From contig JAGLCW010000105.1 of NCBI GenBank assembly GCA_023146045.1, positions 6,506 to 70,505 of the forward strand: DNA of 64,000 nucleotides, given 5' to 3'. The notes under the pieces are model-generated. The model had not been told where the DNA came from and searched no databases. It worked only from the letters and a program-made list of their open reading frames with translations. Positions 19,891-61,487 of the stretch are shown here, one piece after another. How positions within the stretch are numbered: the first letter of the stretch is position 1; the number at the start of each line of letters is the position of its first letter. The stretch is from Caldisericia bacterium (lineage in GTDB: Bacteria; Caldisericota; Caldisericia; UBA6126). A program made the position numbers and the translations under genes.

Positions 19891-19907
19891 ATGTTGAGGG
19901 AAAAATA

Positions 19908-19981: not shown

Positions 19982-19988
19982 ATGTAAA

Positions 19989-20063: not shown

Positions 20064-20069
20064 TTATTC

Positions 20070-26085: not shown

Positions 26086-27599
26086 TGAGTATACTTATTG
26101 ATGGTCATTCATTATCCTTGAGTATAATTGATGCAGTTGCAGTAAAAAAAGAAAAAATAAAAATTAATCCAGATGTATATAAGCGTGTAAATGATTCAGT
26201 GAAATATGTGAGCGAAATTGTAGAAAACGATCAAGTAGTGTACGGTATTAATACTGGATTCGGTAAATTAGCAAGCACAAAAATTGACAAATCTCAGCTT
26301 AGTCATCTTCAAGTAAATCTAATTAGAAGTCATGCAGTGAGCGTTGGTAAACCTTTGCCAGAATCTGTAGTCAGAGCTGCTATATTAATAAGAGTGAATT
26401 CATTACTAGTAGGGCATTCTGGTATCCATCAAGAAGTTATTGATTTACTGGCGTCTTTCCTAAACGAAGGAATTTACCCATTCATTCCAGCAAAGGGCTC
26501 TTTGGGTGCCAGTGGTGACTTGTCTCCATTAGCTCATTTGGCATTAGTATTGATAGGCGAAGGAGAATGCTTCCATAACGGAGAAAAAATTCCATCTAGA
26601 TTTGTACTTAGAGATAAAAATCTTAAACCAATTAACTTAGGACCAAAAGAGGGTTTAGCTTTAATAAACGGTACATCTGTTAGTACGGCTATGTTTTCTA
26701 TAAGCTTAATTGAAACTTTACATATTTTAGATGCTGCTTTCTGTGCTAATGTTCTATCTTTGGAAGCTTATTGTGGTTGTAGAGCGGCTTTTTCACCACT
26801 AGTTCACAATCAGAAACCACACCAAGGACAGCAGTTAGCTGGAAAAATTTTGGACACAGCATTGAAAGATTCAAAATTGATGGATTCTTCTGAAAGAGTG
26901 CAAGATCCATATTCATTTAGATGTATGCCACAAGTTATCGGACCGGTTTTAGATACAGTCAGATATTGCATACAAGAAAACCATTTGGAAATGAATTCTG
27001 CTACTGATAACCCTTTACTATTCATTGATGAAAAAGAGGTAATATCTGGTGGTAATTTTCATGCTCAACCAATAGCCTTCGCAGCAGATTATTTAGCAAT
27101 AGCACTTCAAGCAGCTGGAGAAATTTCTCAATATAGAGTTAACCAGCTGTTAGATTCAAACTTAAGTGGCGGAATTCCAGCATTTGCTGTAAAAGAACCT
27201 GGAGTAAATTCTGGATTCATGATTGTTCAATACACAGACGCCGCACTAGTCTCACAGAATAAAACTTTATGCTATCCTGCTTCAGCAACGTCTATTCCAG
27301 TTTCAGCAAATCAAGAAGATTTTGTTAGCATGGCACCAAACGCATGTATGAAGTTGCACACAATATGCTGGAACCTTTCTAGAATTATTGGAATAGAACT
27401 ACTATCTTCATCTCAATCATTAGAATTTAGAGATAAAGAAAAGTTAGGAACTACAGGTAAAAAAATAAATGACCTTGTAGGTAGTGTTTTTTCTCCAATG
27501 GTAATTGACAGAAGCATTCAAAAAGAAATTGAATTGGTTGGAGAAATGGTTCTAAAAGGTGAATTTTCAAATTTGCTTCCTTTAGAAATTATTCTTTAG
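26085..27599 (+). CDS. hutH: Histidine ammonia-lyase
   Basis: GSLGASGDLSPLAHL contains the ASG triad that forms the MIO cofactor. 504 aa. The start overlaps the lysS stop (TAATG). Confidence 0.9.
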   Translation: MSILIDGHSLSLSIIDAVAVKKEKIKINPDVYKRVNDSVKYVSEIVENDQVVYGINTGFGKLASTKIDKSQLSHLQVNLIRSHAVSVGKPLPESVVRAAILIRVNSLLVGHSGIHQEVIDLLASFLNEGIYPFIPAKGSLGASGDLSPLAHLALVLIGEGECFHNGEKIPSRFVLRDKNLKPINLGPKEGLALINGTSVSTAMFSISLIETLHILDAAFCANVLSLEAYCGCRAAFSPLVHNQKPHQGQQLAGKILDTALKDSKLMDSSERVQDPYSFRCMPQVIGPVLDTVRYCIQENHLEMNSATDNPLLFIDEKEVISGGNFHAQPIAFAADYLAIALQAAGEISQYRVNQLLDSNLSGGIPAFAVKEPGVNSGFMIVQYTDAALVSQNKTLCYPASATSIPVSANQEDFVSMAPNACMKLHTICWNLSRIIGIELLSSSQSLEFRDKEKLGTTGKKINDLVGSVFSPMVIDRSIQKEIELVGEMVLKGEFSNLLPLEIIL

Positions 27600-41182: not shown

Positions 41183-41215
41183 AAGTTTATTATAATGATA
41201 AAAGAGGTAAAAAAA

Positions 41216-42856
41216 ATGAAACACAATATTTTGATCTGGTTTTTAGTGTTGATATTTGTTGCTTCTATTAGTGTTGGTGGACTTTCTGCTCATCCTGAAT
41301 TTGAATCTAATACTTATCAAGAAGCGAACTATCCTGAGTTTGTTGAAAAAGATAAAACAGTTGCACTGGAAATTTTTACAGCTACATGGTGTGGTTGGTG
41401 TCATAAGGCTTACGAGTTATATGATCACTTGGAAAGTAAATTTGGTAAGTTATCTGTATCAAATATTAGATATCATTGCCAAGATAAAATTTCTATAGAA
41501 ACAATAAAAGACAGAACAAATTTTTATGGGATCAGTGGATTTCCAACAATTATTTCAAATGGAACGTACAAACAAACTGGTGTTAATGATGACATATATG
41601 ACAAATTTGAAAAACTAGTTAAAGATGAGTTAAATACTCCTTCTGAATTAGCAATACATACGAATGTTTATTTAGATAACAATAAAATCAATCTAGATGT
41701 TTTTTTGCAAGCTCAAAAAAAGCAACTTGAAGGAGAATTTTTAACATTAACAATGGTTAGTGGTCTTCAAGAACAAAATTCGTCATATGATTATGTTGCA
41801 GAGACTGTTTTTCCGTCTTTTGACGGTTTGCACCTTGTGCTGAATCCTGGAGAAATATTGCATCTAGCATTTACCATGCCAATGGATCAATCTATGGGTG
41901 CTGAACATTACAGTACCCTGTGTATGTTTCAAAACATGAAAACAAAAGAAGTTTACAATTCTCAGTACACATCCTTATACTCTCTTGTTCCAATTTCTTT
42001 CGATATTGAGTCATTTCAAAATGAAGTAAGCAGAGACCATGCATTCAAAATTCAATTCACAGATGGATTAATTGTAAATACAATAAAAACGAATCAATTC
42101 TATTTCCAAGACTCAGTTGGAAAAATTACCAATTGTCGATGGGAATACAATTCGTCATATAAAGAGCTTGTTATCTCTCCAGAATCACTACTTGAGCCAA
42201 ACATGGGGTACGTTCTTTGTATTTCTGGTGGAGATAGTTCTTTCGTATCAACAAAAAGGCAAACACTTTTTCGTGACATAAAGATCCCATTCGTTACTTC
42301 TGAAAAGCCTGATTTAAACTTACAGTATTCTGAATCTAGAATTAATTTTGGAGATGTAATGATCATTGATTCGCCGTTTTCTGTAATTAATATCAAAGAA
42401 GCTAACGGAAATAATGTTAAATTGGAAATTGAGTCTGGTGCTAGATGGATTGAATGTTCACCAGAAAAGGTAACAGCTAGTGAATCAGAAATTTCTATAT
42501 CCATAAATCCTCTTTTTATGGTTGTGGGGAAAAACACTGGATTTGTAAAAATTTCTTCCATAGCTGGTGAGTACATTATTCATGTGGAAGCTAATAGACT
42601 CAGTAACAAATATCCAAGTATAAGAATAGATCCATATTCGTTAATAACATTTGAAAAAAATGTTTCATTTTCAGGTAGGACAGATGGGTATAAAGTTCAT
42701 GTATCTGGAAAAGAAATTGAAGTAGACCTTGATGGGAAATTTAGTTTTGACAAAGAACTTCATCCGGGAACAAATTATGTAACTGTTGAATCAAAAAATA
42801 TGCGCGGAAAAGTGTCAGTATACCCAGTAGTTATTGTTTATATAGAAGTTAACTAG
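41216..42856 (+). CDS. Secreted thioredoxin-fold (CxxC) protein with large C-terminal beta-rich extension
   Basis: Start at the ATG at 41216 (AAGAGGT RBS; TATAAT at 41191-41196). Signal peptide present. Thioredoxin pattern FTATWCGWCHKAYE...GFPTII. Confidence 0.5.
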   Translation: MKHNILIWFLVLIFVASISVGGLSAHPEFESNTYQEANYPEFVEKDKTVALEIFTATWCGWCHKAYELYDHLESKFGKLSVSNIRYHCQDKISIETIKDRTNFYGISGFPTIISNGTYKQTGVNDDIYDKFEKLVKDELNTPSELAIHTNVYLDNNKINLDVFLQAQKKQLEGEFLTLTMVSGLQEQNSSYDYVAETVFPSFDGLHLVLNPGEILHLAFTMPMDQSMGAEHYSTLCMFQNMKTKEVYNSQYTSLYSLVPISFDIESFQNEVSRDHAFKIQFTDGLIVNTIKTNQFYFQDSVGKITNCRWEYNSSYKELVISPESLLEPNMGYVLCISGGDSSFVSTKRQTLFRDIKIPFVTSEKPDLNLQYSESRINFGDVMIIDSPFSVINIKEANGNNVKLEIESGARWIECSPEKVTASESEISISINPLFMVVGKNTGFVKISSIAGEYIIHVEANRLSNKYPSIRIDPYSLITFEKNVSFSGRTDGYKVHVSGKEIEVDLDGKFSFDKELHPGTNYVTVESKNMRGKVSVYPVVIVYIEVN

Positions 42857-44054: not shown

Positions 44055-45791
44055 TTGTCAAGAATGAATGCATTTTTAGTAATCATTAAGCTTGACTTTA
44101 TTCCTTTCAAAAAATATATTTTCCACATGTTATTTAATAAAGCAAAAAAAATAGTAGTTTTTTTTACTACCATGATCTTCATTGTGATCTGCTTTAACGC
44201 TTCTATATTTCAGGTTTCAGCTAACACCATATCTTGTATTGATATTCAAGAACCTCAGTCTGGAGTGGTTGTATCTGGGTTTATACCAGTATTAACTAAT
44301 TGCAGCAAAAAGAACGTTTCATTGGTTTTAAGAGTTATCGAAACATCAGGAAATGCTTATAACCACAAACTATATTTTGACGACGGAGCATATAGGGTTA
44401 ATCTAGACACAAGAACTCTAGACAATGGTACGTATTTTTTATATGTCATAGATAGTAAAAAACAAAAATCAGCTGTAGACTCTCCTATCATTTCTATAGT
44501 TGTTGACAATACACAAACCTCATTACAAGCTATTGTGTCGTCAAAACTTGTAAGAAGTGGAACTACTCTAGATATTTCACTACGTTCTGTTGGGACACTT
44601 CAAAATGTACAAGCCTCAATTGATGAAAGTACAACCATAAACATGTATTTTGATGAAAAAGACTTGATATGGACTACAAAATATTTTGTTCCCTATACAA
44701 TGACTGAAGGAACTCATATAGTAAAAATTAACAGTAAAGACCAAAGAGGTAATACAATACAATGCGATACTGTTTTTATGGTATGCAATTCTGAACCATT
44801 CTTTACTTCACCAACAAACGATATGTTTGTTCTTTCAGAAGAAATTGTACTAAAAGGAATTTTTGCTCCTGGAAATGAAGTATATCTTTATCAGGAAAAA
44901 CAGAACAATAGGCATTTTATAAGCAAAGTTAAAGCAGACATAAGCGGTGTATGGATATCAGAACCAGTTATTTTAGAAAATGGAGTCAATAGGTTTCTAG
45001 CTTTTGCAAACTCTGACCCTGAAGCTATCTCAGTGTTTTCATCTCAAAAAACTACATTAAAGCATTATAAAAACGGCTTAGTTGTTTTGAACTATCACGA
45101 TATCTGTGAAAACGGAAATATATTTTCAAGAGACCCTAAACAATTTGAAGCAGATATGATTTACCTTAAAGAAAACGGATTTAGTTTTGTTTCTCCAACT
45201 CTTTATTTTAGTCATATAAATGGAAAAGCAGATCTTCCAAAAAAGCCTGTTTTGATAACTTTTGATGATGGACTAGCTGGGGCATACAAATTTGCTTATT
45301 CTATCATGAAAAAACTAAACATTGAGGGTTTTTTCTTTTTGCTCGTTAGTAGGGTTGGAACTACAAGCAACTATGTTACATGGGAACAGTGTCGTGAAAT
45401 GCAGTCATCAAGAGTTTTTTGTATGGAATCTCACACTTTAAATTCACACTATTTTGTAGATAACAGAGAAGGACGCCATGCTGCTCTTATTAGCAGACTA
45501 CCATTGCCAGATGGAACTGTTGAAACACCTGAACAGTATTTAAAGAGAGTATCAGAAGATCTTTTAATATCGAAACAAATTATCGAGGAAGAAACTCAAA
45601 AAAAAGTGAATTTTTTAGCCATACCGTTTGGTTATGGCAATAATGATTTGAATAAAATAGTACGTAACCAGGGCTACAAAGGAACTTTTAACTCTGGAGG
45701 TGGTGTAAATGTCTTGCCATTAAAAGATGGTTGGAGCGTAAAGAGGATAACAATAAAAAAGAATGATGATCTTTCAGAGATTTTGTTTTAG
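44055..45791 (+). CDS. Secreted polysaccharide deacetylase (NodB-type) with N-terminal Ig-like/beta-sandwich domains
   Basis: The C-terminal part carries NodB motifs (VLITFDDGLAGAY..., LLVSRVG..., HT.NSH). The start is uncertain (TTG 44055, ATG 44064 or ATG 44127 before the hydrophobic signal segment). Confidence 0.6.
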   Translation: MSRMNAFLVIIKLDFIPFKKYIFHMLFNKAKKIVVFFTTMIFIVICFNASIFQVSANTISCIDIQEPQSGVVVSGFIPVLTNCSKKNVSLVLRVIETSGNAYNHKLYFDDGAYRVNLDTRTLDNGTYFLYVIDSKKQKSAVDSPIISIVVDNTQTSLQAIVSSKLVRSGTTLDISLRSVGTLQNVQASIDESTTINMYFDEKDLIWTTKYFVPYTMTEGTHIVKINSKDQRGNTIQCDTVFMVCNSEPFFTSPTNDMFVLSEEIVLKGIFAPGNEVYLYQEKQNNRHFISKVKADISGVWISEPVILENGVNRFLAFANSDPEAISVFSSQKTTLKHYKNGLVVLNYHDICENGNIFSRDPKQFEADMIYLKENGFSFVSPTLYFSHINGKADLPKKPVLITFDDGLAGAYKFAYSIMKKLNIEGFFFLLVSRVGTTSNYVTWEQCREMQSSRVFCMESHTLNSHYFVDNREGRHAALISRLPLPDGTVETPEQYLKRVSEDLLISKQIIEEETQKKVNFLAIPFGYGNNDLNKIVRNQGYKGTFNSGGGVNVLPLKDGWSVKRITIKKNDDLSEILF

Positions 45792-45800
45792 GAGGATGTT

Positions 45801-46952
45801 ATGAAACTATTGGAATATCAAGCAAAAGAAGTGTTTAGAAGTGCTGGAATATTAACTCCGAAGGAAATTATGGTAATGTCTCTAGATGACGCAGTTAAAG
45901 CTGCAGAAGATGTTGTAGGCTATCCATGCGTTGTAAAAGCTCAAGTTCCTGTTGGTGGTAGAGGAAAAGCTGGTGGAGTAAGGCTTGCTAAAAGCAAAGA
46001 AGAAGTAGCAAATATAACATCCAAAATTTTAGGAATGGATATTAAGGGCTGCACAGTAGAGAAAGTACTAATTTCTGAAGCAGTAACAGTTTCAAAAGAA
46101 TACTATCTAAGTGTTGTTTTGCATAGAGGATCAAAAAAACCAATGGTAATTATCTCTCCATCTGGTGGAGTAGATATTGAAGAAATAAGTAAAACTCACC
46201 CAGAAATGATTTTTAAAGAAGAGTTTGATATGATTCTTGGATTTAAAGACTATAGCCTTAGAAATCTCTACAAAAAAGTCTTTTCAGGACAAGGCGAAAA
46301 AGTTTCTTTTTCAGTATTCAAATCTTTTTTAGAAAAACTAATTGATATTTATTTTAAAAAGGATGCAACCCTCGTAGAGATCAATCCACTTATAATACAT
46401 AATGGTCAATGCATGGCTCTAGATGCGAAAATATTGCTTGATGACAACGGGCTTGTTTTCCATCCAGAATTTTCAAAGTATGTTAATGATAATTCAGATG
46501 AAACAGAACAAGAAAAAATGGCAAGAGAAGCTAGCTTAACGTATATTTCTCTCGAAGGGGATATTGCATGTATGGTAAATGGAGCTGGTCTTGCTATGGC
46601 AACTATGGATACAATAACCCATTTTGGAGGATCTGCAGCAAATTTCTTAGATATTGGTGGGAGCTCCAATCCAGAAAAAGTTGTGAATGCATTAAAAATT
46701 ATTGCCTCAAATAAAAAAGTAAAATCAATATTGATTAATATTTTTGGTGGCATTACAAGGTGTGATGATATCGCCAATGGTTTTAAGGAAGGTATTGAAA
46801 AAGTAAAGATAGATTTGCCAATATCATGTAGAATTGTTGGTACAAATGACCAGGAAGCAAAAAGAATAATGAACAGTATTGGTATAAATGTATCAGTAAA
46901 CATGGACGAAGCAATTCAGAATGCTGTTAAACTTTCTAAGGATGGTAAATAG
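45801..46952 (+). CDS. sucC: Succinate--CoA ligase beta subunit
   Basis: [12 protein letters not shown]..., ATP-grasp fold, ...GGRGKAGGV..., and a C-terminal CoA-ligase domain. 383 aa. Confidence 0.9.
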
Positions 46953-47812
46953 TGAGTATTCTCGTAGATGAAAAATCAAAAATAGTAGTCCAGGGAATAA
47001 CTGGAAGAGACGGATTATTCCATACTGAAAAAATGGTTCAATACGGGACAAACGTTGTAGCAGGGGTTACTCCGGGAAAAGGTGGACAGCTTGCATATAA
47101 TGTTCCCGTATTCAATTCTGTGGAAGAATCAGTAAAAGCTACTGGAGCTGATACTTCAATAATATATGTTCCTGAAAAATTTGCTGCAGATGCTATTGTT
47201 GAAGCTGCAGATGCTGGAGTGAAACTAATTGTCTGTATCACAGAAGGTATTCCAATCAACCAAATGGTCACCGTACAGGCTTACTTAAAAACAAAACCAG
47301 ACATAAGATTAATTGGACCAAACTGTCCTGGATTAATATCTCCAGGAAAATGTAAAGTCGGAATTTTGCCTGGAGATATTTTTGCTAAAGGTAATGTTGG
47401 AGTTGTTTCTCGCAGTGGTACACTTACATATGAGGTTGTTTACAGTATTACTTCATCAGGTTTAGGTGAATCGACATGTGTTGGCATTGGAGGAGATCCA
47501 ATTATTGGAACAAACTTTATTGATACATTAAAGCTTTTCAACGAAGATCCACAAACTCAATCAATTGTGCTTATCGGTGAAATTGGCGGAGATGCTGAAG
47601 AAAAAGCAGCAGAATACATTAAAAAGAACATTAAGAAGAGAGTTGTAGGGTTTATTGCTGGAGTTACGGCACCACCAGAAAAAAGAATGGGTCATGCTGG
47701 AGCAATAATATCTCAAGGAAAAGGGACTGCGGCAAGTAAGGTAGAAGCGCTAGAAGAAGTGGGTGTAAGAGTAGCAAAAATTCCTTCACAAATACCGGAG
47801 TTATTAAAGTGA
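46952..47812 (+). CDS. sucD: Succinate--CoA ligase alpha subunit
   Basis: GTG start overlapping the sucC stop. [21 protein letters not shown]... An active-site His region (MGHAGAII) is present. Confidence 0.9.
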
Positions 47813-48813
47813 AGGCAACTATATTGGGATCAAACGATAGTGGTAAAAAAGACTTATTTGATATTTTGTCTGGTGGCAAAGTTTCAAAAATGAAGAGTAA
47901 ACTTATAGGTTCTGCAAATGTTCCAGATAGCCGTGTTAATGAACTTTCTGATTTTTTTAAACCAAAGAAAATAACATTCACACAATTAAACTTTTTATCT
48001 GTTGGACTTGAACCAACATTCCCATACGAAGATTTACGAGCTTCTGATATGTTTGTGTTGCTTTTAAAGGCTCACAGCGCATATGAAGGCGATACATTTG
48101 ATATTAAAGCTTCATATGAAGATATCGACTTAATTTTCAGATTAAAAGACGTTGAGCTAATTGAAAATTTTATAGATAGACATAAAAAAGATCCAAAAGC
48201 TAAAAAGGAAATTGAAGCTTGCAAGACTCTTGTTGAGCTAATTGAAAAAGGAGAAACAGATATTGATCATTCATTGCTTCAGTTGGATACAGTAAAGAAT
48301 CTTGGATTAAATTCAATTATTCCAAGAATTGTTGTTTTAAATGTGGACGAAGATCACATTAACACAGCATTAGAACAAGAAGCTGATTTTAAAGATGCTT
48401 ATCCTGAAGTTAAATACTCAAAACTTTGCGTTCAACTAGAGAAAGAGATTTCCTTAATGAACGATGAAGATCAAGAAATGATGTTTTCTGAGTACAAAAT
48501 TGAAGAACCTGGATTAAATAAACTTATCAACGCAGCATATGATACATTAGGCTTAATGACATTTTTTACCGTTGGTGAAGATGAAGTTAGAGCATGGACA
48601 ATTCATTCTGGAAATATAGCTCTTGAAGCTGCAGGAAAAATTCACACCGATATTAAAAAAGGGTTCATTAGAGCAGAGATTGTTCATTATAATGACTTTA
48701 AAGACAACGGGTTCTCATTTAAAACTTGTAAAGATAAAGGATGTTTCTATCTTGAAGGAAAAGAATATGTCATTCAAGATGGCGATATAATGCATGTAAG
48801 GTTTAATATCTAA
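47809..48813 (+). CDS. YchF-like protein (Obg-family ribosome-binding ATPase homologue) with apparently degenerate G1/G3 motifs
   Basis: The C-terminal ~100 aa match the YchF TGS/C-terminal domain ([60 protein letters not shown]...[11 protein letters not shown]). The N-terminal Walker A reads GSNDSGKKD instead of G.PNVGKST. The GTG start overlaps the sucD stop (GTGA). Confidence 0.6.
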
Positions 48814-50111
48814 TGCAATCTGAGAATACTAAAGCTGAGCATATTAAAAAGAATCAAAAGTTAATCGTAAATATTTCTGAGTTGATTGCTCCACAAAGTA
48901 AAAATGGAAAACCAAGAAAAGGTATTGAACAAAACAAGCTGCTTAGAATTAAAAAAGCTTTTGTTGCGATAGAAAATGGGAAAATAATTGATTTCGGCAG
49001 AATGAATGATTGCCGATCTAAATATAAGAATTTTCAAGAAATTAACGCTAATAATAAGGTTGTAATGCCTGGATTTGTAGATCCTCACACACATTTGGTA
49101 TTTGCTGGCAATAGAGCAAAAGAATATGTAGCAAGGCTGAAAGGTGCAAGCTATTTAGAAATACTTTCAAATGGCGGTGGAATTATTGATACAGTAATGT
49201 CTGTTAGAAAGGCGTCACTGGAAGAATTGATCAAAAACACTGTGAATGTTTTTAGGGAATGCATAAGATACGGAACAACTTCTTTTGAAGTTAAAAGTGG
49301 TTACGGACTCAATATTTCTGACGAAGTCAAAATGCTAACAGCCGCTACTATTGCTGCTAAGGAATGTGGAGTTAATATATCCAGAACATTGTTAGCTGCA
49401 CACGCTGTTCCTCCTGAATACAAAGATAAAAAAGATGAGTACATTAATCTTATTAACAATTCAATAACACCTGAAGTTGCAAAAATGAAACTTGCAGAAA
49501 ATATTGATGTGTTTTGTGAGGCTGGGGTTTTTTCAGTTGAAGAAGCAAGATTAATTCTAAAAACAGGTATTAACTATGGCTTGAGACCAAAATTGCATGT
49601 TGATGAGTTTGAAGCTATTGGAGGATTATCTCTTGCTGCAGAACTAAATGCAATATCTGCAGATCATTTAATGGTGTCAAAGGAAAAAGAATTTGATAGT
49701 TTTGAAAAGGCTGGCTCGATAGGAGTTGTTCTGCCAGGAACTTCATTCGGTTTAACTCATGATGATTCTGATTTAGGGTATGGTAGAAAACTTATTGATG
49801 CTGGAATACCTGTTGCAATTGGTACCGATTTAAATCCAGGTACATGTATGTGTAACTCAATGCAGATGATGATTGAGATTGCTATACTTAAAATGGGATT
49901 CACATTAGAGGAAGCGATTAATGCAGCTACCATTAATGCTTCTTTTGCTTGTAATCTAGATAACAAATCTGGAATGATTGAGATTGGTAAAAATGCAGAT
50001 TTATTATTTCTTTCAATTGAAGAAATAGAAGAATTTCCATATAGATTTGGAGTAAATAAGGTTACAAGACTGTTACTGAATGGAATTGATTTTAATTTGC
50101 GAATAGTGTAA
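48813..50111 (+). CDS. hutI: Imidazolonepropionase
   Basis: PGFVDPHTHLVFAG is the amidohydrolase HxH. Overall HutI pattern. 432 aa. The start overlaps the upstream stop (TAATG). Confidence 0.8.
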   Translation: MQSENTKAEHIKKNQKLIVNISELIAPQSKNGKPRKGIEQNKLLRIKKAFVAIENGKIIDFGRMNDCRSKYKNFQEINANNKVVMPGFVDPHTHLVFAGNRAKEYVARLKGASYLEILSNGGGIIDTVMSVRKASLEELIKNTVNVFRECIRYGTTSFEVKSGYGLNISDEVKMLTAATIAAKECGVNISRTLLAAHAVPPEYKDKKDEYINLINNSITPEVAKMKLAENIDVFCEAGVFSVEEARLILKTGINYGLRPKLHVDEFEAIGGLSLAAELNAISADHLMVSKEKEFDSFEKAGSIGVVLPGTSFGLTHDDSDLGYGRKLIDAGIPVAIGTDLNPGTCMCNSMQMMIEIAILKMGFTLEEAINAATINASFACNLDNKSGMIEIGKNADLLFLSIEEIEEFPYRFGVNKVTRLLLNGIDFNLRIV

Positions 50112-50198
50112 TATTATAAAAAAATTAGCATAGAAGTTAAAGATTATCTATGAAAGGCTGTCATGGCTTTTTATTATTTGTTTCTCAGGGGGGACTTG

Positions 50199-53144
50199 AT
50201 GAAAGCAAGAACAAACAAAGTTTTAAGTGTTATTCTTTCCGTAGTACTACTAGGAAGTATTTTTTCTGTTTTTAAAGCAGAGCCAGTGTCTGCTTTAAAA
50301 AACTTTGTAATGACCGTGCAACCAAGAAAAGTAGCAACAAGATCTACTTACAAGTTTAATGTTACAATCGAGAAAAGACTTAAAGTGCACGAAGCTGTTA
50401 CTTTGGTTTGGCCTGCTGGAACTATTATTGATCCACCAATACCAAAAGATGAGAAAAAAAAGAAAGAACGTTTAACTCAAATTATTGAGTCGATGTCTAT
50501 AGGACTTTCACCTTGTTCTGCGTGTCAAGGGTTACCAAAAATTACTACAACTCCTGATGGAGGAATTCAGCTTGTATTTAATACTCATATTGAGTTAAAT
50601 CCAGAAATTGAAGGTTATTCAAATATAGTAGTCACTGTGCCTGATACATGTGGTTTTGTAACTCCTCCTGAGCAAGGAGAATATATGTGGAGGTTCTCAA
50701 CTGGAGCAGAGCCAACATTGGTTTCTTCCGCTCCATTTATGATCGTAACTAGTGCAATAGGTGTGCCAGAAGGTATGCCAGAAGTAGAAGTTAAACCTTC
50801 ATCTTTCCGTGCCAACGCATCTTACAAGATTGGTTTTAATGTTGGACAAGGTGGATGGCTTCGTGAAGGAGATGGACGAATTAGAGTTAAATTTCCTGAA
50901 GGAACTTTGTTCTCAAAAAAAGAAATCAAAGAAAAATATATTCTTGTTAATGGAAAACCTTTAGTTAATCCACCACTTGCCGTTAGAACTCAAATGACAT
51001 TTATTACACCAGTAGGGGTTGCTGATGGCGGTAGAATAGTTATTGAAATTAGTGAAGGAGCCGGTGTCGTCAACCCATCAAAACCTGGCGAATATACTTT
51101 GCAAGTTTCTACAATTCCTGCTGACAAGGAATGGGTAGAGTCTATACCTTATTTAATTGAAAAAGGTGGAGCATTGTTAAAGATAGTTCCAGCAAAAGTA
51201 AATAAAAATGCACAGTATTCTTTTTCATTTATTCTTGAACCAGGAAAATCTTTAGCTCCAAGTGGGAAAATTAATGTAAAATTCCCAGAAGGTACCGTAG
51301 TACCAACAAGCCTAGATAAAACCAAAATTACAATTGGTGGAAAACCAGTTTCTTCAATTGCAGTTAAAGGTATGGAAGTTGAGTTAAATTCAGCAGTATC
51401 TGTTGAAGAAGAAGATGCCGTAGATGTTGTTTTTGGATCTGAAACTGGAATCATGAATTCAAAAAAGGCTGGAGAAGTAAAACTAGGCTATAAGTTGGAA
51501 AGCGACAAAGATTACTTACTAACATCACCTGTTGAGCTGATTGAATCTAGACTAGAAATAGAAGACGTAATGAATGATCCAAACAATGCACACTCAATTT
51601 CCGAATGGACAATTGATGGAATGGTTGGCGATAATGGAGCATTGAAAAAAGGTGATTTTATTGCAATCACATTCCCTGAAAATGTGGAAATACCAGAAAA
51701 AATATCCGCCGAAACAATTACTATTAACGAAGAAACAGTTTCAAAAGTAACCGTTAAAGGTCAAACAATTGAAATCTCTTTGAGTGAATCAATTTCCGGT
51801 GGAGAAATATTTAAATTAGTTGTAACACTAGATGCGGGAATTAGAAACCCAAATGAAGAAAAAGTAGGATATACATTAAGTGTTTACACATCTGTTGAAA
51901 AAAATCCTGTTTTAACCCCAACATTCTTTACTACACCAGCATTACCAGAGGCTAAGTATAAAATATCTGGTGGAGAAAAAGGTGAAGATGGTTGGTATTT
52001 AAACCCACCAGTAGTAAATTTCTTCTGCGACGACCCAACAGCAGTAATCAAGCTTTATTGGGACGACAAAGATAATCAGATTATTACTTTTGGGGGAGAT
52101 GCAAAACCTCTCGATATTGGTCAGTATGAATCACGTATTACATATTGGGCAGAATCTATCACAGGTGTAGAACCTCCAAAATCATTTGTAGTTAAAGTAG
52201 ACACAGTTTTGCCTGAAGTTGTTATGAGTTCTCCAGAAGAATTAAAAACAATTACTACCGAAGCAACAATTAAAGTAGAAGGTCGTACTACGCTCATTGC
52301 AACCATTCGTTTTGGTGTGGATTCACTAGAGTATGACTTGATTGCATTCATTAATGGAGAAAATGTGGTTGTTAACCCCGAAGACGGAACTTTCTCAAAA
52401 ATGGTTGACTTAAAAAACGGGCTTAACAAAATTGAAGTTTTAGCAAAAGACGAAGCAGGTCACAAAAAGATATTAAACTACGAAGTTATGTTTGACATTG
52501 AGCCACCTGAAATTGATGTTACATATCCAAAAGAAGGCGAAGTTGTAACAAAGAAACGTTTCGAAGTTACAGGGAAAACTGACCCAACAGCACAACTAAC
52601 AATTGATGGTGAATTTGTTTATTTAGAAGAAGACGGTTCATTTGCGTACGAAATGACACCAAGAAAATTAGGCAAATTAACTATAGAGTTGATTGCTACC
52701 GACCCAGTCGGTAATGTTACAGCAAAGAAAACTAATTTTACTTTTGGTTATACAATCATTTTGGCTATAGGTAAAAAAACTGCAACAGTAAACGGAGAAG
52801 TCCAAGATTTATCTATGACACCAATTATTCAAAACGGTAGAACGCTTGTTCCTTTTGGTTTCATAGCAAGAGCTTTAAATGCAGAAGTAGGATTTACAAA
52901 ACATCCTATAACTAAAAACGTTGATACAGTTTCATTAGAACTTGATGGAACTAAAGTAATACTTACAATAGGATCAAAGATTGCAAAAGTTAACGGTAAA
53001 GATATGGAAATGGATATTGCTTGTCAAATAATTAGCAGTAACACAATGGTACCAGTTCGCTTTGTTACCGATAGCTTAGGTGCAGAAATTGGTTGGGAAG
53101 GAAAATCTCAAACAATAACTATTACCTATCCTAAAGTAAGATAA
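50199..53144 (+). CDS. Large secreted/surface protein with multiple beta-sandwich repeats and C-terminal copper-amine-oxidase-N-like (CAO-N) domains
   Basis: Start at the ATG at 50199 after a GGGGGGA RBS. Signal peptide present. Repetitive VxFPEGT... beta-strand units. C-terminal NGRTLVPFGFIARALNAEVGF and SNTMVPVRFVTDSLGAEIGWEG repeats. Confidence 0.5.
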   Translation: MKARTNKVLSVILSVVLLGSIFSVFKAEPVSALKNFVMTVQPRKVATRSTYKFNVTIEKRLKVHEAVTLVWPAGTIIDPPIPKDEKKKKERLTQIIESMSIGLSPCSACQGLPKITTTPDGGIQLVFNTHIELNPEIEGYSNIVVTVPDTCGFVTPPEQGEYMWRFSTGAEPTLVSSAPFMIVTSAIGVPEGMPEVEVKPSSFRANASYKIGFNVGQGGWLREGDGRIRVKFPEGTLFSKKEIKEKYILVNGKPLVNPPLAVRTQMTFITPVGVADGGRIVIEISEGAGVVNPSKPGEYTLQVSTIPADKEWVESIPYLIEKGGALLKIVPAKVNKNAQYSFSFILEPGKSLAPSGKINVKFPEGTVVPTSLDKTKITIGGKPVSSIAVKGMEVELNSAVSVEEEDAVDVVFGSETGIMNSKKAGEVKLGYKLESDKDYLLTSPVELIESRLEIEDVMNDPNNAHSISEWTIDGMVGDNGALKKGDFIAITFPENVEIPEKISAETITINEETVSKVTVKGQTIEISLSESISGGEIFKLVVTLDAGIRNPNEEKVGYTLSVYTSVEKNPVLTPTFFTTPALPEAKYKISGGEKGEDGWYLNPPVVNFFCDDPTAVIKLYWDDKDNQIITFGGDAKPLDIGQYESRITYWAESITGVEPPKSFVVKVDTVLPEVVMSSPEELKTITTEATIKVEGRTTLIATIRFGVDSLEYDLIAFINGENVVVNPEDGTFSKMVDLKNGLNKIEVLAKDEAGHKKILNYEVMFDIEPPEIDVTYPKEGEVVTKKRFEVTGKTDPTAQLTIDGEFVYLEEDGSFAYEMTPRKLGKLTIELIATDPVGNVTAKKTNFTFGYTIILAIGKKTATVNGEVQDLSMTPIIQNGRTLVPFGFIARALNAEVGFTKHPITKNVDTVSLELDGTKVILTIGSKIAKVNGKDMEMDIACQIISSNTMVPVRFVTDSLGAEIGWEGKSQTITITYPKVR

Positions 53145-55087: not shown

Positions 55088-58000
55088 GTGTCACAACAAT
55101 CATTTACTATACAGGATTTGAACAAAATTAAGCAAGATTTCTGCGCCCCTAATCTTCTGGAGATGCAGAGACAATCTTTTCAATGGCTTATTGATAAAGG
55201 GATTCAAGAGCTGTTAAAAGAATTTGAAGCTACAGATTCTAACTATGAGAGCGGGAAAGTTTTAGTGCGCTTTCTAGGGTACGAAATAAATGCTCCAAAA
55301 ATTACACCTTCTGAAAGCAAAACAAAAGGTAAAACATACAAAGGTGAGCTTAGATTATCTATAAGATTGACTAATACAGAATTAGGTGAAGAAATTCATC
55401 TTCAAGATAAGAATAAAAGGATCGCTGTTGGGGAATTTCCATACATGACTCCAACTGGATCATTTATCATAAACGGAATCGAAAGGGTCGTAGTAGGACA
55501 GCTAACACGTTCTCCAGGAGTTTATTTTGAAAAATCAATATCAGTAAAAACCGGAGATCCAGTATACAAAGCAACTATTATACCTGATCGAGGATCATGG
55601 ATTGAATTTGAAACAAACGAAGATGGAGCAGTTTTTGTGTTTCTTGATAAAAGGAGTAAAAAACTTCCAGCAACCATTGTTCTTAGGGCATTAGGGCTTA
55701 CTGATCAAGAACTTAAAGAAGAATTAAAAGATGATACAGTTGTAGAACTAAGAACAAACTCAAAAGAATTTTTTAGTGCAGCTGGAAAGGTTTTAGATGA
55801 CGATATCTACGACTTACAAACTGGAGAAGACCTTTATAAAAAAGGAACAGTTTTAACTCTTGATATTCTAGAAGAAATAGCAAAAACAAATATTTCAGTT
55901 ATTCATATATATGATAGAGCTTTGTCACGATTTGCCTTGGCAACACTCGAAGAAGACAATACAGAAGATGAAGAAAATGCAAAAAAATTAATATTTATGA
56001 AATTAAGACCAGGTGAACGATACACAAAAGAAAATGCAGATATCCAATTCAGACAGGTACTGACAGACCCAAGAAGAAACGACTTAGGTGAAGTTGGTCG
56101 TTTCAAAATGAATAAAAAACTAGGATTAAATTCCGAAGAAAGAGTAATTACCAAAGATGATTTGGTTAGAATAATTCAATACTTTGCTAAAATTGAGCAC
56201 AATACAGGTCAAACAGACAATAGAGATCATTTGGGGAATAAAAGACTTAGACTTGTTGGTGAATTACTTAAAAATAGTATGCGAATTGGTTTGCATAGAG
56301 TAATGAAAAACACATATGAAAAGATTTCTGTTACTCCTTGGGAAGAAATTCACAAACATACTTCAAACATAATTAACCCAAGACCGTTAGAAGCTTCAAT
56401 AAAAGAATTTTTCAGCATGGGTCAATTGTCACAGTTTATGGACGAAACAAATCCAATTGCTGCATTAACGCACAAAAGAAGAATATCTGCTTTAGGACCT
56501 GGCGGTTTACACCGTGAAAGAGCTGGTGCTGAAGTAAGAGACGTTCACCACTCTCACTATGGAAGAATTTGCCCGATTGAAACTCCAGAAGGTGAGAACG
56601 TTGGCTTAATAAATTCATTGGCTGTTTATTCAAAAATAGACGACAGAGGATTTATTGTAGCAACTTATAAAATAGTCAAAGACTGTCAAGTTCTTGATGA
56701 AACTGTGTCAATAATTGCCGATGACGAAGAAGATAAATTTATTGGTCAGTTTGATACTCCTATAGATGAAAATGGATACATTACTTCTGACGATGTGTTA
56801 TGCAGGCATGGTAATGTTTACGAGACTGTTCCAAAAGAAAAAGTAAATTTAATGGATCTTTCACCGTTGCAAGTGTTTTCTGTTTCGGCTGGATTGATTG
56901 CATTCTTAGAACACGATGATGCCAACAGAGCTTTAATGGGCTGTAACATGCAACATCAAGCTGTTCCACTAATTAAACCTGAAATACCATACGCTGGTAC
57001 AGGTCTTGAAGAGAAAGCTGCCGTTGACTCTGGAGCAGTTGAATTGTCTCCAGATGAAGGAATAGTGGTTTATGTGGATTCAAAACAAATTGCAATAGCC
57101 TCACCAGAGTATGGAACTGAAAAAGTATCTATTGGTGCTTTCAATGTGTCACTTATTGATAAAATTCTTGCTCAAGATATCCCCGGTATAGCAGAAATTG
57201 GTCAACCAATTACCGGAAATTTATTACATAAGCTTTTTTACGAAGGTTATACCTCGGTAGCGTATACAGATACTAAAGTATTTGAAAAAATAGATCTAGC
57301 CGAGCTTGTAATATATGAAAAAAATGAAGCATTAATCGGTCGCAAATTGATTGAAGATGTTTGTACATCAACCAACAAGGTTTTAATTGCAGCTGGCAGA
57401 GAAATCTCAAAAGGTCTTATTGACAGGCTGATTGGTGCTAAAATTGCCATGGTTAAAGTTGATGGGATTATGGGTGGAGAGGAAGAAGTACCAGTTTTTG
57501 AAATTAAATATATTTCAAAGGACAATATATCTACCGATAAAATTTTAGTTCACTCTGATCCTATGTATGAAAAAATACAATATGGACATCAGTTAACACC
57601 AACTGTTTTTTCCCTGCTCAAAGAAGGAAATACAAGAAATATTGTTTTAGTTTCTCCAGATGATTTAAAATATGCCGAACCATTTATTCTTTCACCAAAA
57701 CTCCACAAAAAAGCTTTATTGGCCGAGGAAGTTATTGTTGGTGCAGAAGTTATTGTTGGAAAAGATGAAGTTGTAACAAGAGACATGATAGTCAGTTTTG
57801 TTAAAAACAATATTGAAAAAATAACAATAAACAAAACAAAAAACATTGAACTTACTAAATTTAGACGAACAAACCAAGATACCGTTGTAAACAAATATCC
57901 TATGGTTGAAAGTGGCGATAGAATAACAAAGAAATCACCAATAATAAATGGCCAAGCCTGTGATAGAGGAAGATTGGCTTTAGGTCAAAATTTACTCACT

Positions 58001-59371
58001 GCTTATGTACCATGGCGTGGCTATAATTACCAGGATGCTATTGTTTTAAATCAAAGACTGGTTTCCGAAGACATACTAACTTCTTTACACATAAAAGAAC
58101 ATAAGGTTCAAGTAAGGGATACAAAAGTTGGACCACAAGAGATCACAAGAGATATTCCAAATGTACCTGAAGATCAATTGCGTAATTTAGATGAAGATGG
58201 AGTAATTCGTGTTGGTACAGAAGTTGGACCAAACGATATTCTGGTTGGTAAAATTACTCCAAAGGCTGAGAGCGAGTTTACACCAGAAATGAAGCTTTGG
58301 AGAGCTATGTTTGATAAAAAAGGTCAAGACGTAAAAGATTCCTCGTTAAGAGTCCCACCCGGAGACAGAGGAACAGTTATTGATGTTCAAATACTATCTC
58401 GCCAAGAAGAAGAAAATTTACCAATTGGTGTTAATAAAATTGTAAAAGTATACATAGGCGAAAAGCGAAAAATACAAGTTGGTGATAAGTTGTCTGGAAG
58501 ACATGGTAACAAAGGTGTAATATCTAAAATATTGCCAGTAGAAGATATGCCATACTTGGAAGATGGAACTCAGGTAGATATTGTATTGAACCCACTTGGA
58601 GTACCTTCTAGAATGAATGTTGGGCAGATTATGGAGTGCTTACTTGGTATACTTGCAAAAGAAACAGATTCATACTGCGTAACAACACCATTTGCTGGTG
58701 TTACCCCAGAAGAATTGTTAATGAAACTAGACGAAGATGGAACAACAGAACACGGGAAAAGAGTACTATATGATGGACACACTGGTGAGCCTTTTGAAAA
58801 TAAGGTAACCGTTGGGTATTCTTACATAATGAAGCTCAACCATATGGTTGAAGATAAAATTCACGCTAGATCAATTGGACCATATGCTTTAATCACTCAA
58901 CAGCCGCTGGGTGGTAAAGCTCAATTTGGTGGACAAAGATTTGGTGAAATGGAAGTTTGGGCACTAGAAGCTTACGGTGCTGCATACACATTAAACGAAA
59001 TGTTAACTATAAAATCTGATGATACAGAAGGCAGGGTCAGAGCCTATGAATCTATTTGCAATAGAGACTTGATTCTACCCAGTAGCAACCCTGAATCTTT
59101 CAACGTAATTATCAATGAACTTAAGGGTCTTGGTATAAAAATGGAAATCGTTGAAGATGAAACATTTAAAGAAGATAACTTTGAACTGAAATTACCAGAA
59201 GAGTTAACTGGTCGCGCTAACAACGTACCAGATGACCTAGATGCCGATTTCGAAAACTTTATAAATAGTGATTTAGAATTTACTGGTCTTTTAAAAGACA
59301 GCGAATCTGAAGACGATATTAGCAAAGATGTTGAAGTTACAAAAAATGTTAGCAAGGGGGACCAAAAATGA
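55088..59371 (+). CDS. rpoB: DNA-directed RNA polymerase beta subunit, unusually long (1427 aa) with lineage-specific insertions
   Basis: GTG start after AAGGAG. Universal RpoB blocks are present (GRHGNKGVISKI, NPLGVPSRMN, KLNHMVEDKIHARSIGPY, QQPLGGKAQFGGQRFGEMEVWALEAYGAAYTL). Large extra segments lie between the conserved blocks. Confidence 0.95.
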   Translation: MSQQSFTIQDLNKIKQDFCAPNLLEMQRQSFQWLIDKGIQELLKEFEATDSNYESGKVLVRFLGYEINAPKITPSESKTKGKTYKGELRLSIRLTNTELGEEIHLQDKNKRIAVGEFPYMTPTGSFIINGIERVVVGQLTRSPGVYFEKSISVKTGDPVYKATIIPDRGSWIEFETNEDGAVFVFLDKRSKKLPATIVLRALGLTDQELKEELKDDTVVELRTNSKEFFSAAGKVLDDDIYDLQTGEDLYKKGTVLTLDILEEIAKTNISVIHIYDRALSRFALATLEEDNTEDEENAKKLIFMKLRPGERYTKENADIQFRQVLTDPRRNDLGEVGRFKMNKKLGLNSEERVITKDDLVRIIQYFAKIEHNTGQTDNRDHLGNKRLRLVGELLKNSMRIGLHRVMKNTYEKISVTPWEEIHKHTSNIINPRPLEASIKEFFSMGQLSQFMDETNPIAALTHKRRISALGPGGLHRERAGAEVRDVHHSHYGRICPIETPEGENVGLINSLAVYSKIDDRGFIVATYKIVKDCQVLDETVSIIADDEEDKFIGQFDTPIDENGYITSDDVLCRHGNVYETVPKEKVNLMDLSPLQVFSVSAGLIAFLEHDDANRALMGCNMQHQAVPLIKPEIPYAGTGLEEKAAVDSGAVELSPDEGIVVYVDSKQIAIASPEYGTEKVSIGAFNVSLIDKILAQDIPGIAEIGQPITGNLLHKLFYEGYTSVAYTDTKVFEKIDLAELVIYEKNEALIGRKLIEDVCTSTNKVLIAAGREISKGLIDRLIGAKIAMVKVDGIMGGEEEVPVFEIKYISKDNISTDKILVHSDPMYEKIQYGHQLTPTVFSLLKEGNTRNIVLVSPDDLKYAEPFILSPKLHKKALLAEEVIVGAEVIVGKDEVVTRDMIVSFVKNNIEKITINKTKNIELTKFRRTNQDTVVNKYPMVESGDRITKKSPIINGQACDRGRLALGQNLLTAYVPWRGYNYQDAIVLNQRLVSEDILTSLHIKEHKVQVRDTKVGPQEITRDIPNVPEDQLRNLDEDGVIRVGTEVGPNDILVGKITPKAESEFTPEMKLWRAMFDKKGQDVKDSSLRVPPGDRGTVIDVQILSRQEEENLPIGVNKIVKVYIGEKRKIQVGDKLSGRHGNKGVISKILPVEDMPYLEDGTQVDIVLNPLGVPSRMNVGQIMECLLGILAKETDSYCVTTPFAGVTPEELLMKLDEDGTTEHGKRVLYDGHTGEPFENKVTVGYSYIMKLNHMVEDKIHARSIGPYALITQQPLGGKAQFGGQRFGEMEVWALEAYGAAYTLNEMLTIKSDDTEGRVRAYESICNRDLILPSSNPESFNVIINELKGLGIKMEIVEDETFKEDNFELKLPEELTGRANNVPDDLDADFENFINSDLEFTGLLKDSESEDDISKDVEVTKNVSKGDQK

Positions 59372-61443: not shown

Positions 61444-61487
61444 AAAAATTATGAGCATAATAAGTTCAACAAAAGGGGGTTCTCGTT

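What the first reader, a model, noticed from the sequence alone, without database searches (positions are those of the whole stretch)
47809..48813. YchF homologue with apparently degenerate nucleotide-binding motifs, translationally coupled into a sucC-sucD-X-hutI operon
The C-terminal domain is clearly YchF-like (TGS region ...[34 protein letters not shown]...[11 protein letters not shown]). The internal segment [25 protein letters not shown] matches YchF's [25 protein letters not shown]. The Walker A/G1 is GSNDSGKKD (Lys replaces the Ser/Thr that coordinates Mg) and the G3 DxxG reads LSVG. This suggests a catalytically impaired 'pseudo-ATPase' YchF. Its start overlaps the sucD stop (GTGA) and its stop overlaps the hutI start (TAATG), so it is co-expressed with succinyl-CoA synthetase and imidazolonepropionase. 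That partnership is not a known YchF context.
Basis: partly seen in the sequence, partly recalled or inferred. Interest (0 to 1): 0.55.

Follow-up and report, generated by a model that had tools for sequence, protein, structure and literature searches.

The report
YchF-like protein without its ATPase motifs
A Caldisericia bacterium encodes a well-conserved relative of the near-universal ribosome-binding ATPase YchF that keeps the whole fold but has lost almost every motif needed to bind and split ATP, so it most likely acts as a nucleotide-independent "pseudo-ATPase".

Summary
ORF 47809-48813 (+) encodes a 334-aa protein, NCBI MCK5848238.1, "DUF933 domain-containing protein [Caldisericia bacterium]". 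It has the full three-domain YchF fold (AlphaFold pLDDT 88.6; TM 0.84-0.90 to YchF/OLA1 structures). It scores only 173.9 bits on the YchF equivalog TIGR00092 (cut-off 279.2).

The P-loop is degenerate, and short deletions remove switch I/G2, the G3 DxxG with switch II, and the catalytic His114 loop. All 23 full-length clade members (44-92% identity, Caldisericia MAGs) share these losses, and their P-loop residues differ between sub-lineages. The gene is not decaying: dN/dS is 0.05. The Lys-rich helical tip, the G4 NxxE motif and the C-terminal domain are kept.

The alr|PDA-sucC-sucD-ychF'-hutI order, with an overlapping sucD stop and ychF' start, is conserved across the clade. A P-loop-intact group in other uncultured bacteria also carries sucCD-ychF-like, without hutI.

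The protein belongs to a large, divergent YchF-like radiation in which G motifs decay repeatedly. In one MAG a member of that radiation sits beside a canonical ychF. I could not determine whether Caldisericia also have a canonical YchF. Verdict: a real, new pseudo-NTPase variant of a known family, of moderate interest.

The parts
47809..48813 (+). ychF' gene: 334-aa YchF-family pseudo-NTPase (NCBI MCK5848238.1)
   Evidence: ORF. PF06071 E 2.3e-34, and TIGR00092 at 173.9 bits, below the 279.2 cut-off. AlphaFold pLDDT 88.6, with Foldseek TM 0.84-0.90 to YchF/OLA1. Exact NCBI match.
47797..47800 (+). GGAG Shine-Dalgarno-like element inside the 3' end of sucD, 8 nt before the GTG start
   Evidence: Read directly from the sequence. 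Similar GGAG/AGG elements sit at the same place in relatives.
47827..47853 (+). Degenerate G1/P-loop, residues 7-15: GSNDSGKKD instead of GLPNVGKST (Ser16 to Lys14, Thr17 to Asp15)
   Evidence: HMMER alignment to 1jal and 8kie. In the clade census 1 of 23 members match GxxxxGK[ST], against 169 of 177 relatives.
47887..47901 (+). Site of the switch I/G2 deletion, around residues 27-31 (KMKSK). About 6 residues are missing, including the canonical NYPFCTIxPN threonine.
   Evidence: Alignments A1 and all.aln.
47920..47970 (+). Conserved YchF signature [17 protein letters not shown], residues 38-54. V38, D40, R42, P52 and K54 are invariant across the clade and relatives.
47995..48006 (+). Remnant of G3, residues 63-66 (LSVG in place of DIAG), immediately followed by a deletion of about 10 residues that removes switch II
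   Evidence: DxxG is present in 0 of 23 clade members and 148 of 177 relatives.
48073..48093 (+). Shortened loop, residues 89-95 (HSAYEGD), that replaces the catalytic His114 loop of E. coli YchF. His is replaced by Tyr92, with a 4-5 residue deletion.
   Evidence: Y, F or G in all 24 clade sequences, His in 101 of 177 others. The role of His114 is taken from PMC11814078.
48178..48210 (+). Lys-rich tip of the helical domain, residues 124-134 ([11 protein letters not shown]). It corresponds to the E. coli K149/K152/K156/K159 tip that contacts 23S rRNA H62.
   Evidence: Alignment. K127 is invariant and D128 nearly invariant in the clade. The ribosome contact is taken from PMC11814078.
48340..48351 (+). 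Retained G4-type motif NVDE (N178-E181), the YchF-specific NxxE
   Evidence: N178 is invariant. N..[ED] is present in 23 of 23 clade members and 177 of 177 relatives.
48553..48807 (+). C-terminal TGS-like YchF domain (PF06071), residues 249-333; the most conserved part of the protein
   Evidence: conservation; pN is lowest in this domain.
45801..46952 (+). sucC, ADP-forming succinate-CoA ligase beta subunit, upstream in the same overlapping gene string
   Evidence: NF001913 at 427 bits, above the 370 cut-off.
46952..47812 (+). sucD, succinate-CoA ligase alpha subunit. Its stop codon overlaps the ychF' start by 4 nt.
   Evidence: NF004230 at 451 bits. The 4-nt overlap (10 nt in L007) is conserved in L001-L009.
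48813..50111 (+). hutI, imidazolonepropionase. Its ATG overlaps the ychF' TAA by 1 nt.
   Evidence: TIGR01224 at 425 bits, above the 298 cut-off. Present downstream in all Caldisericia loci but not in L088, L094 or L095.
44055..45791 (+). Polysaccharide-deacetylase-domain protein, the first gene of the co-directional string, 9 nt before sucC
   Evidence: PF01522. Conserved position in relatives.

Best explanation
The gene encodes a YchF-family pseudo-NTPase. The protein still folds as G domain, inserted coiled-coil and C-terminal TGS-like domain. Its G domain, however, has lost four elements: the phosphate/Mg-binding part of the P-loop, switch I/G2, the DxxG with switch II, and the catalytic His114 loop. 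It therefore most likely neither hydrolyses ATP nor switches on nucleotide (inferred from sequence).

Selection has kept three features: the fold itself, the Lys-rich tip of the helical domain, and the C-terminal domain. In E. coli YchF that tip docks on 23S rRNA H62, uL14 and bL19. The most likely mode of action is therefore constitutive, nucleotide-independent binding to the large ribosomal subunit or another RNA or protein partner. That would make it a permanently 'locked' version of the YchF translation or stress modulator (inferred).

The protein is made from the same mRNA as SucCD and HutI through overlapping stop and start codons (shown by sequence). I read that gene order as a lineage-specific inheritance rather than a functional partnership (inferred).

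Evolutionarily, the protein is the most eroded member of a large, divergent YchF-like radiation in which G motifs decay repeatedly.
For: Fold:
- AlphaFold gives pLDDT 88.6 and pTM 0.84, and the N-terminal domain is also confident.
- Foldseek places YchF/OLA1 structures at the top, with TM 0.84-0.90.

Motif loss:
- HMMER and MAFFT alignments show the losses directly.
- In the clade, 1 of 23 members match GxxxxGK[ST], against 169 of 177 relatives.
- In the clade, 0 of 23 have DxxG, against 148 of 177 relatives.
- In the clade, 0 of 24 have His114, against 101 of 177 relatives.
- The P-loop Gly and Lys themselves vary between sub-lineages (GKK, GKS, GKQ, GKN, GKD, GTQ, GSQ, GSD, SKT, SRT).
- TIGR00092 score falls from 499.5 (Finegoldia) through 399.5 and 323 for variants to 173.9 here.

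Not a pseudogene:
- dN/dS is 0.049 overall and 0.043 in the N-terminal G half, measured against a 92%-identical relative.
- The clade spans 44-92% identity with intact ORFs.

Retained interaction surfaces:
- K127 is invariant within [11 protein letters not shown], which aligns to the E. coli K149-K159 tip.
- PF06071 scores 118 bits.
- The hydrolysis-dead E. coli H114A mutant still binds 50S, so binding does not need catalysis (PMC11814078).

Context:
- The gene string is conserved in all Caldisericia loci.
- No neighbour recurs across 79 loci of relatives.
Against: - No biochemistry exists; loss of binding and hydrolysis is inferred from sequence alone.
- The G4 NxxE motif and the G5-region Glu211 are invariant. 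About half of the clade, including this protein, keeps GxxxxGK. Residual binding of a nucleotide or nucleoside cannot be excluded.
- Only two of the four E. coli tip lysines align exactly (K149 and K159), and the tip loop is 5 residues shorter. Ribosome binding is therefore plausible but not shown.
- The sucD/ychF' overlap is conserved and recurs in a second lineage (L088, L094). That pattern could reflect function rather than history.
Confidence: 0.6

Rival explanations
1. The protein is still a nucleotide-binding protein. It would be a non-hydrolysing sensor of ATP/ADP or (p)ppGpp, or an NTPase with relocated catalytic residues, using the retained GxxxxGK, the NxxE base-recognition motif and Glu211.
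For: N178 and E181 (NxxE) and E211 are invariant or nearly so. The window protein keeps G7, G12 and K13. Plant YchF1 is known to bind ppGpp (PDB 7y9i among the top structural matches).
Against: The P-loop Lys and second Gly are not conserved within the clade (GTQ, GSQ, GSD, SKT), so nucleotide binding cannot be the clade's conserved function. Switch I, DxxG/switch II and the His114 loop are physically deleted. The Asn of G4 also has a structural role in G domains (general knowledge), so its conservation is not diagnostic.
Confidence: 0.12
2. The protein has been recruited as an accessory or regulatory subunit of succinyl-CoA synthetase, or of a SucCD/HutI metabolic module. Translational coupling would then set its stoichiometry.
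For: The sucD stop and ychF' start overlap in every clade locus. The sucC-sucD-ychF-like order also occurs in a distinct P-loop-intact group with different flanks (L088, L094; SucD 52% identical).
Against: The closest members of that second group (P0184/L093, P0274/L095) have rluD-ychF-like with no sucCD, so the pairing is dispensable. None of 79 other relatives' loci has sucCD nearby. The Caldisericia string mixes unrelated functions (polysaccharide deacetylase, SCS, hutI, S-layer-like protein), which is typical of compaction in a small genome. No SucC or SucD link appears in the E. coli YchF study read.
Confidence: 0.1
3. The gene is a decaying pseudogene or a mis-called ORF.
For: The loss of catalytic motifs could in principle reflect decay.
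Against: dN/dS is 0.05 in every domain. Intact ORFs of 332-334 aa are found across 44-92% identity. The structure prediction is confident. Start and stop positions are conserved.
Confidence: 0.02

Closest known systems
Canonical YchF/OLA1 (TIGR00092; E. coli YchF, H. influenzae HI0393 1jal, human OLA1 2ohf)
   Same: Same three-domain architecture and fold (TM 0.84-0.90). Shares the VPDxR...KPKK signature, the NxxE G4 motif, the Lys-rich helical tip and a highly similar C-terminal PF06071 domain.
   Different: Falls below the family's curated score (173.9 against 279.2). The P-loop Ser/Thr pair is replaced, switch I and switch II/DxxG are deleted, the catalytic His114 loop is deleted, and the redox Cys35 is absent. 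The sucCD-hutI context is unusual.
Divergent 'variant' YchF-like proteins of uncultured and anaerobic lineages (for example P0024, P0033, P0079, P0057, L088, P0184). PGAP names them either YchF or 'DUF933 domain-containing protein'.
   Same: They group together apart from canonical YchF (87% NJ bootstrap). They share [13 protein letters not shown]-type C-terminal sequences, altered G2 regions and frequent loss of DxxG or His114.
   Different: Most keep GxxxxGK[ST]T (169 of 177). The Caldisericia clade is the only group seen that combines P-loop decay with all three deletions, and it has the lowest TIGR00092 score.
Other independently degenerate YchF-like lineages (P0096/P0100/P0105 with GR[ST]; L024/L048/P0164 with GQQ/GKE; P0170/P0207/P0228/P0247 with GKK)
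   Same: They have P-loop substitutions of the same kinds, including GKK as in the window, together with loss of DxxG.
   Different: They are separate lineages in other phyla, for example Saganbacteria-like MAGs. They are 340-360 aa long, have smaller deletions and lack sucCD.
Class i pseudoGTPases (for example the AAGAB N-terminal domain; definition in PMC12490416)
   Same: The GTPase fold is retained while the G motifs needed for nucleotide binding and hydrolysis are lost, and the domain is presumed to serve as an interaction scaffold.
   Different: Those examples are eukaryotic Ras-like domains with experimentally shown lack of binding. This is a bacterial TRAFAC/Obg-family member, and its lack of binding is only inferred.

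Membership tests
YchF/OLA1 (TIGR00092 equivalog) | Whole-protein score at or above the curated cut-off (279.2 bits) | tested here: not met
   173.9 bits, aligned only over residues 106-333. For comparison, Finegoldia YchF scores 499.5 and clade member P0013 scores 189.
YchF/OLA1 | Three-domain architecture: G domain, inserted helical coiled-coil and C-terminal TGS-like domain (PF06071) | tested here: met
   PF06071 E 2.3e-34. AlphaFold model with Foldseek TM 0.84-0.90 to 5ee0, 1jal, 8kie_y and 2ohf.
YchF/OLA1 | G1 P-loop GxxxxGK[ST] | tested here: not met
   GSNDSGKKD. Only 1 of 23 clade members matches the pattern, and the Gly and Lys vary between sub-lineages.
YchF/OLA1 | G2/switch I (NYPFCTIxPN with Thr36) | tested here: not met
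   A deletion of about 6 residues is shared by all clade members.
YchF/OLA1 | G3 DxxG and switch II | tested here: not met
   LSVG followed by a deletion of about 10 residues. 0 of 23 clade members have DxxG.
YchF/OLA1 | Catalytic His114 (E. coli numbering) | tested here: not met
   Tyr92 in a loop shortened by 4-5 residues. Y, F or G in all 24 clade sequences. The role of His114 is taken from PMC11814078.
YchF/OLA1 | G4 NxxE, the ATP-preferring variant of NKxD | tested here: met
   N178-V-D-E181, with N178 invariant.
YchF/OLA1 | Positively charged helical-domain tip that contacts 23S rRNA H62 | tested here: inconclusive
   [11 protein letters not shown] has 5 Lys in 8 residues. K127 aligns with K149 and K132 with K159, but the loop is 5 residues shorter and K152 is deleted. 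Binding was not tested.
YchF/OLA1 | ATPase activity and ribosome association | not testable with these tools
   Needs purified protein.
Class i pseudoGTPase (PMC12490416) | Canonical G-domain fold retained | tested here: met
   N-terminal blocks have pLDDT 83-95 and the fold superposes on YchF G domains.
Class i pseudoGTPase | G motifs for nucleotide binding and catalysis absent | tested here: met
   G1 is degenerate and G2, G3 and the catalytic His are deleted. G4 is retained.
Class i pseudoGTPase | No nucleotide binding and no hydrolysis shown experimentally | not testable with these tools
   Requires a binding assay (mant-nucleotides, ITC or DSF) and a phosphate-release assay.

The most novel reading that the evidence does not exclude
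Caldisericia may have no canonical YchF at all. In that case this motif-less protein would be their only representative of a gene counted among the near-universal single-copy bacterial markers (COG0012/TIGR00092). A whole bacterial class would then carry out YchF's core job without ATP binding or hydrolysis. That would imply the conserved function of YchF is a nucleotide-independent ribosome or RNA interaction, with the ATPase acting only as a regulatory add-on.
Probability: 0.3. Interest if true: 0.7.

Novelty: new variant of a known kind. Interest (0 to 1): 0.45.

Why it matters
YchF/OLA1 is one of the few nearly universal P-loop NTPases whose cellular role and need for ATP hydrolysis are still debated. 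This clade is a natural experiment bearing on that debate. It is under strong purifying selection, keeps the fold, the helical tip and the C-terminal domain, and has discarded the nucleotide machinery. If ribosome binding persists, it shows which YchF functions do not need nucleotide.

The clade also points to a wider, apparently undescribed pattern. There is a large divergent YchF-like radiation with repeated, independent decay of G motifs, and at least one genome carries both that form and a canonical YchF.

On the practical side, JGI/IMG labels these proteins 'ribosome-binding ATPase YchF'. That label over-calls an activity they probably lack, and such sequences could disturb marker-gene sets based on TIGR00092 or COG0012.

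Tried and rejected
1. Search for a second YchF in this genome.
- tblastn of five YchF queries against the 64-kb window found only this gene.
- A look-up to extend the contig beyond the window returned only a 3.4-kb Logan contig.
- A search with window SucD, meant to reach a named Caldisericum exile locus, found no such hit.
- The afdb50 fold library was unavailable.
- The paralogue question therefore stays open.

2. A functional link through conserved neighbours across the family. Clustering of neighbours in 79 relatives' loci gave no recurrent family; the best was shared by 10 of 79.

3. L088 as sister group. A first NJ tree suggested it, but bootstrap support is only 17%. Kinship with the L088 group rests on shared gene order, not on the tree.

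4. L020 as a second case of co-occurrence. Its extra copy is only a C-terminal fragment of the variant type, so I rejected it as evidence.

5. Promoter and terminator scan of 43.5-55.2 kb. Counts were at or below the shuffled expectation and are not informative.

6. Literature. No paper combines YchF with pseudoGTPase or with Caldisericota, and the five DUF933 papers are unrelated.

7. A correction to my own notes. I first equated the catalytic His with the HVVR histidine (His102). The catalytic residue is His114 in the following loop, and I redid the census for it.
Full report
**1. What is there**

ORF 47809..48813 (+) encodes 334 aa. Its GTG start overlaps the TGA of the upstream gene (GTGA). 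Its TAA overlaps the ATG of the downstream gene (TAATG). A GGAG lies 8 nt upstream of the start. The exact sequence is NCBI MCK5848238.1, [quoted passage not shown], on a 75-kb contig. The neighbouring SucD is MCK5848237.1. The window is 33% G+C.

The flanking genes pass curated equivalog cut-offs: sucC (NF001913, 427 bits), sucD (NF004230, 451 bits) and hutI (TIGR01224, 425 bits). A polysaccharide-deacetylase-domain gene precedes sucC by 9 nt, and alr is divergent upstream.

**2. Is it a YchF, and are the motifs really gone**

Pfam finds only the C-terminal YchF domain (PF06071, E 2.3e-34) and no G-domain family. The YchF equivalog TIGR00092 gives 173.9 bits against a cut-off of 279.2, and only residues 106-333 align. 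phmmer against PDB sequences finds H. influenzae YchF (5e-41) and E. coli YchF (2e-37) over the full length. An AlphaFold model built on 22 clade sequences is confident throughout (pLDDT 88.6, pTM 0.84). It matches every solved YchF/OLA1 structure at TM 0.84-0.90, and nothing else comes close. So the fold is YchF.

The alignments show the following.

- **G1.** The motif reads GSNDSGKKD where canonical YchF reads GLPNVGKST. The Mg-coordinating Ser16 becomes Lys14 and Thr17 becomes Asp15.
- **Switch I/G2.** About 6 residues are deleted from NYPFCTIxPN.
- **G3 and switch II.** DxxG is replaced by SVG, followed by a deletion of about 10 residues.
- **His114 loop.** The loop carrying the catalytic His114 is 4-5 residues shorter and has Tyr92. 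His114 is critical for hydrolysis according to PMC11814078.
- **Retained elements.** These are the VPDxR...KPKK signature, the YchF-type G4 NxxE (N178-E181), Glu211, a Lys-rich helical tip ([11 protein letters not shown]) and the C-terminal domain.

**3. Is it a lineage feature or an accident**

A search of 5.8 billion proteins found a tight clade of 22 clusters (332-334 aa, 44-92% identity, PF06071 only). The score then drops from 290 to 210 bits for the next relatives. In the 50%-identity representative library only three representatives belong to the clade.

All 23 full-length clade members share the three deletions. None has DxxG or His114. Only one, P0001, which is 92% identical to the window protein, matches GxxxxGK[ST]. 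The P-loop differs between sub-lineages (GKK, GKS, GKQ, GKN, GKD, GTQ, GSQ, GSD, SKT, SRT). That is the pattern expected if nucleotide binding stopped being selected in the clade's ancestor.

The protein as a whole is nevertheless under strong purifying selection. dN/dS is 0.049 overall and 0.043 in the N-terminal G half, against the 92%-identical relative (dS about 1). It is therefore a functional protein whose function no longer uses the canonical nucleotide site.

**4. Context**

Eight clade proteins were looked up or fetched, spanning 44-100% identity to the window protein. Every contig long enough to show the region has the order alr(-) | deacetylase-sucC-sucD-ychF'-hutI-like-large Cu_amine_oxidN1 surface protein ... 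rpoB. The sucD/ychF' overlap is 4 nt, or 10 nt in L007. Co-transcription and translational coupling are thus well supported by sequence.

Functional coupling is not supported.

- The string mixes unrelated functions.
- hutI is linked only in Caldisericia.
- Among 79 loci of relatives from other phyla, only L088 has sucCD next to the gene, and no other neighbour family recurs.
- L088 and L094 belong to a distinct 342-346-aa group with an intact P-loop, no DxxG and a shortened His loop. Their order is rpoD-uvrD-Cu_amine_oxidN1-rluD-sucC-sucD-ychF-like.
- The closest relatives of that group (L093, L095) have rluD-ychF-like without sucCD.

The sucCD adjacency is therefore older than the P-loop loss, and it is dispensable. 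Shared gene order (sucCD, a Cu_amine_oxidN1 protein, rsmD-coaD nearby) hints that this group is related to Caldisericia. The tree does not support that relationship: bootstrap for the pairing is 17%.

**5. Where it sits in the family**

NJ trees separate canonical YchF from a large, heterogeneous radiation that contains the Caldisericia clade. The canonical forms carry GLPNVGKST, NYPFCT and DIAGLVKGASKGEGLGN. The radiation includes Clostridia, Nitrospirota, Chloroflexota, Acidobacteriota, Planctomycetota, Gemmatimonadota, Ignavibacteria and delta-proteobacterial MAGs. The split has 87% bootstrap support, and clade monophyly has 100%. Long-branch effects cannot be excluded with NJ.

TIGR00092 scores fall gradually across this radiation: 399.5, 323, 294, 233, 230, 222, 214, 189, and 173.9 for the window protein.

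Among the 150 nearest representatives, about 17 outside the clade also have a broken P-loop (GKK, GKR, GR[ST], GV, GKE), and roughly 40% lack DxxG. Motif decay is therefore recurrent in this radiation.

One MAG contig (L038) carries both forms 2.6 kb apart: a variant-type gene (293.9 bits) and a canonical ychF (449 bits). The variant type is thus a paralogue at least in that organism.

I could not determine whether Caldisericia also have a canonical YchF. Every available route was blocked or uninformative. No clade member carries a UniRef source or a Caldisericum exile name, so the cultured species may not have this form.

**6. Most likely mechanism**

These points are shown:

- the fold is retained;
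- the catalytic and switch elements are lost;
- purifying selection is strong;
- the gene overlaps and is therefore coupled to its neighbours.

These points are inferred:

- The protein neither hydrolyses nor switches on nucleotide. I put the probability of no canonical ATPase activity at about 0.85.
- It acts through the surfaces that remain conserved.

In E. coli, YchF docks on the 50S subunit mainly by the helical domain. The Lys tip (K149, K152, K156, K159) contacts H62, and the hydrolysis-dead H114A mutant remains ribosome-bound (PMC11814078). The window protein keeps a Lys-rich tip, with K127 invariant. So a constitutive, nucleotide-independent 50S or RNA binder is the best-supported model. 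I put the ribosome-binding step at about 0.5.

The rivals are a residual nucleotide sensor, a partner of SucCD, and a pseudogene. I rate them 0.12, 0.10 and 0.02.

**7. Novelty**

I found no paper describing P-loop-degenerate YchF proteins. Databases only flag them indirectly, as PGAP "DUF933 domain-containing protein". JGI calls them "ribosome-binding ATPase YchF". By sequence criteria the protein fits the class i pseudoGTPase concept (PMC12490416), but binding has not been tested.

I classify it as a new variant of a known kind, of moderate interest. The interest would rise substantially if it proves to be the only YchF of Caldisericia.

Noticed in passing
window 55088-64000: A complete EF-G-family gene (59368-61443; GTP_EFTU, EFG_III, EFG_IV and EFG_C domains) sits between rpoB (55088-59371, 4-nt overlap) and an ORF starting near 61464 whose N-terminus looks like RpoC. 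The usually contiguous rpoB-rpoC pair is therefore split. The same rpoB-then-EF-G order is seen in L003 and L007.
   Followed up: partly
L038 3229-4299 and 6907-7977: One 10.4-kb MAG contig (JAGGZS010000046.1, 'bacterium AUK210') carries two YchF genes 2.6 kb apart. One is a divergent variant (TIGR00092 293.9 bits, no PFCT, no DxxG) and the other is fully canonical (449 bits). This is direct evidence that the variant type can be a paralogue.
   Followed up: yes
proteins P0096/P0100/P0105, P0164, P0170, P0207, P0228, P0247, P0261; loci L024, L048, L021: Several unrelated YchF-like lineages have independently lost the P-loop Lys or Ser/Thr (GR[ST], GQQ, GKE, GKK, GKR, GQT), often together with DxxG. 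Motif decay is recurrent in this radiation.
   Followed up: partly
L088 7023-11035; L094; L093; L095: A 342-346-aa YchF-like group has an intact P-loop but no DxxG. It lies directly after an RluD-type pseudouridine synthase gene, with sucCD inserted between the two in one subgroup only.
   Followed up: partly
window 26085-27599: An aromatic amino-acid lyase (PF00221, 569 bits), likely histidine ammonia-lyase HutH, lies 21 kb from hutI. A histidine-utilisation pathway is therefore plausible, but its genes are scattered. No hutU was seen among the ORFs scanned.
   Followed up: no
L020 about 19527-20128: A truncated second YchF-like copy, covering only the C-terminal 200 or so residues in two frames, lies 8.5 kb downstream of the full-length variant gene in a Dethiobacteria MAG.
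   Followed up: yes
window 19688-20151 (-): A cluster of five tRNA genes (Leu-GAG, Val-TAC, Asp-GTC, Phe-GAA, Asp-GTC) includes a duplicated tRNA-Asp.
   Followed up: no
window 50163-53144 and 41195-42856: Two large secreted-looking proteins have Glucodextran_B/Big domains. One of them carries C-terminal Cu_amine_oxidN1 repeats, which is S-layer-like. Homologues flank the ychF-like gene in both Caldisericia and the L088 group.
   Followed up: no
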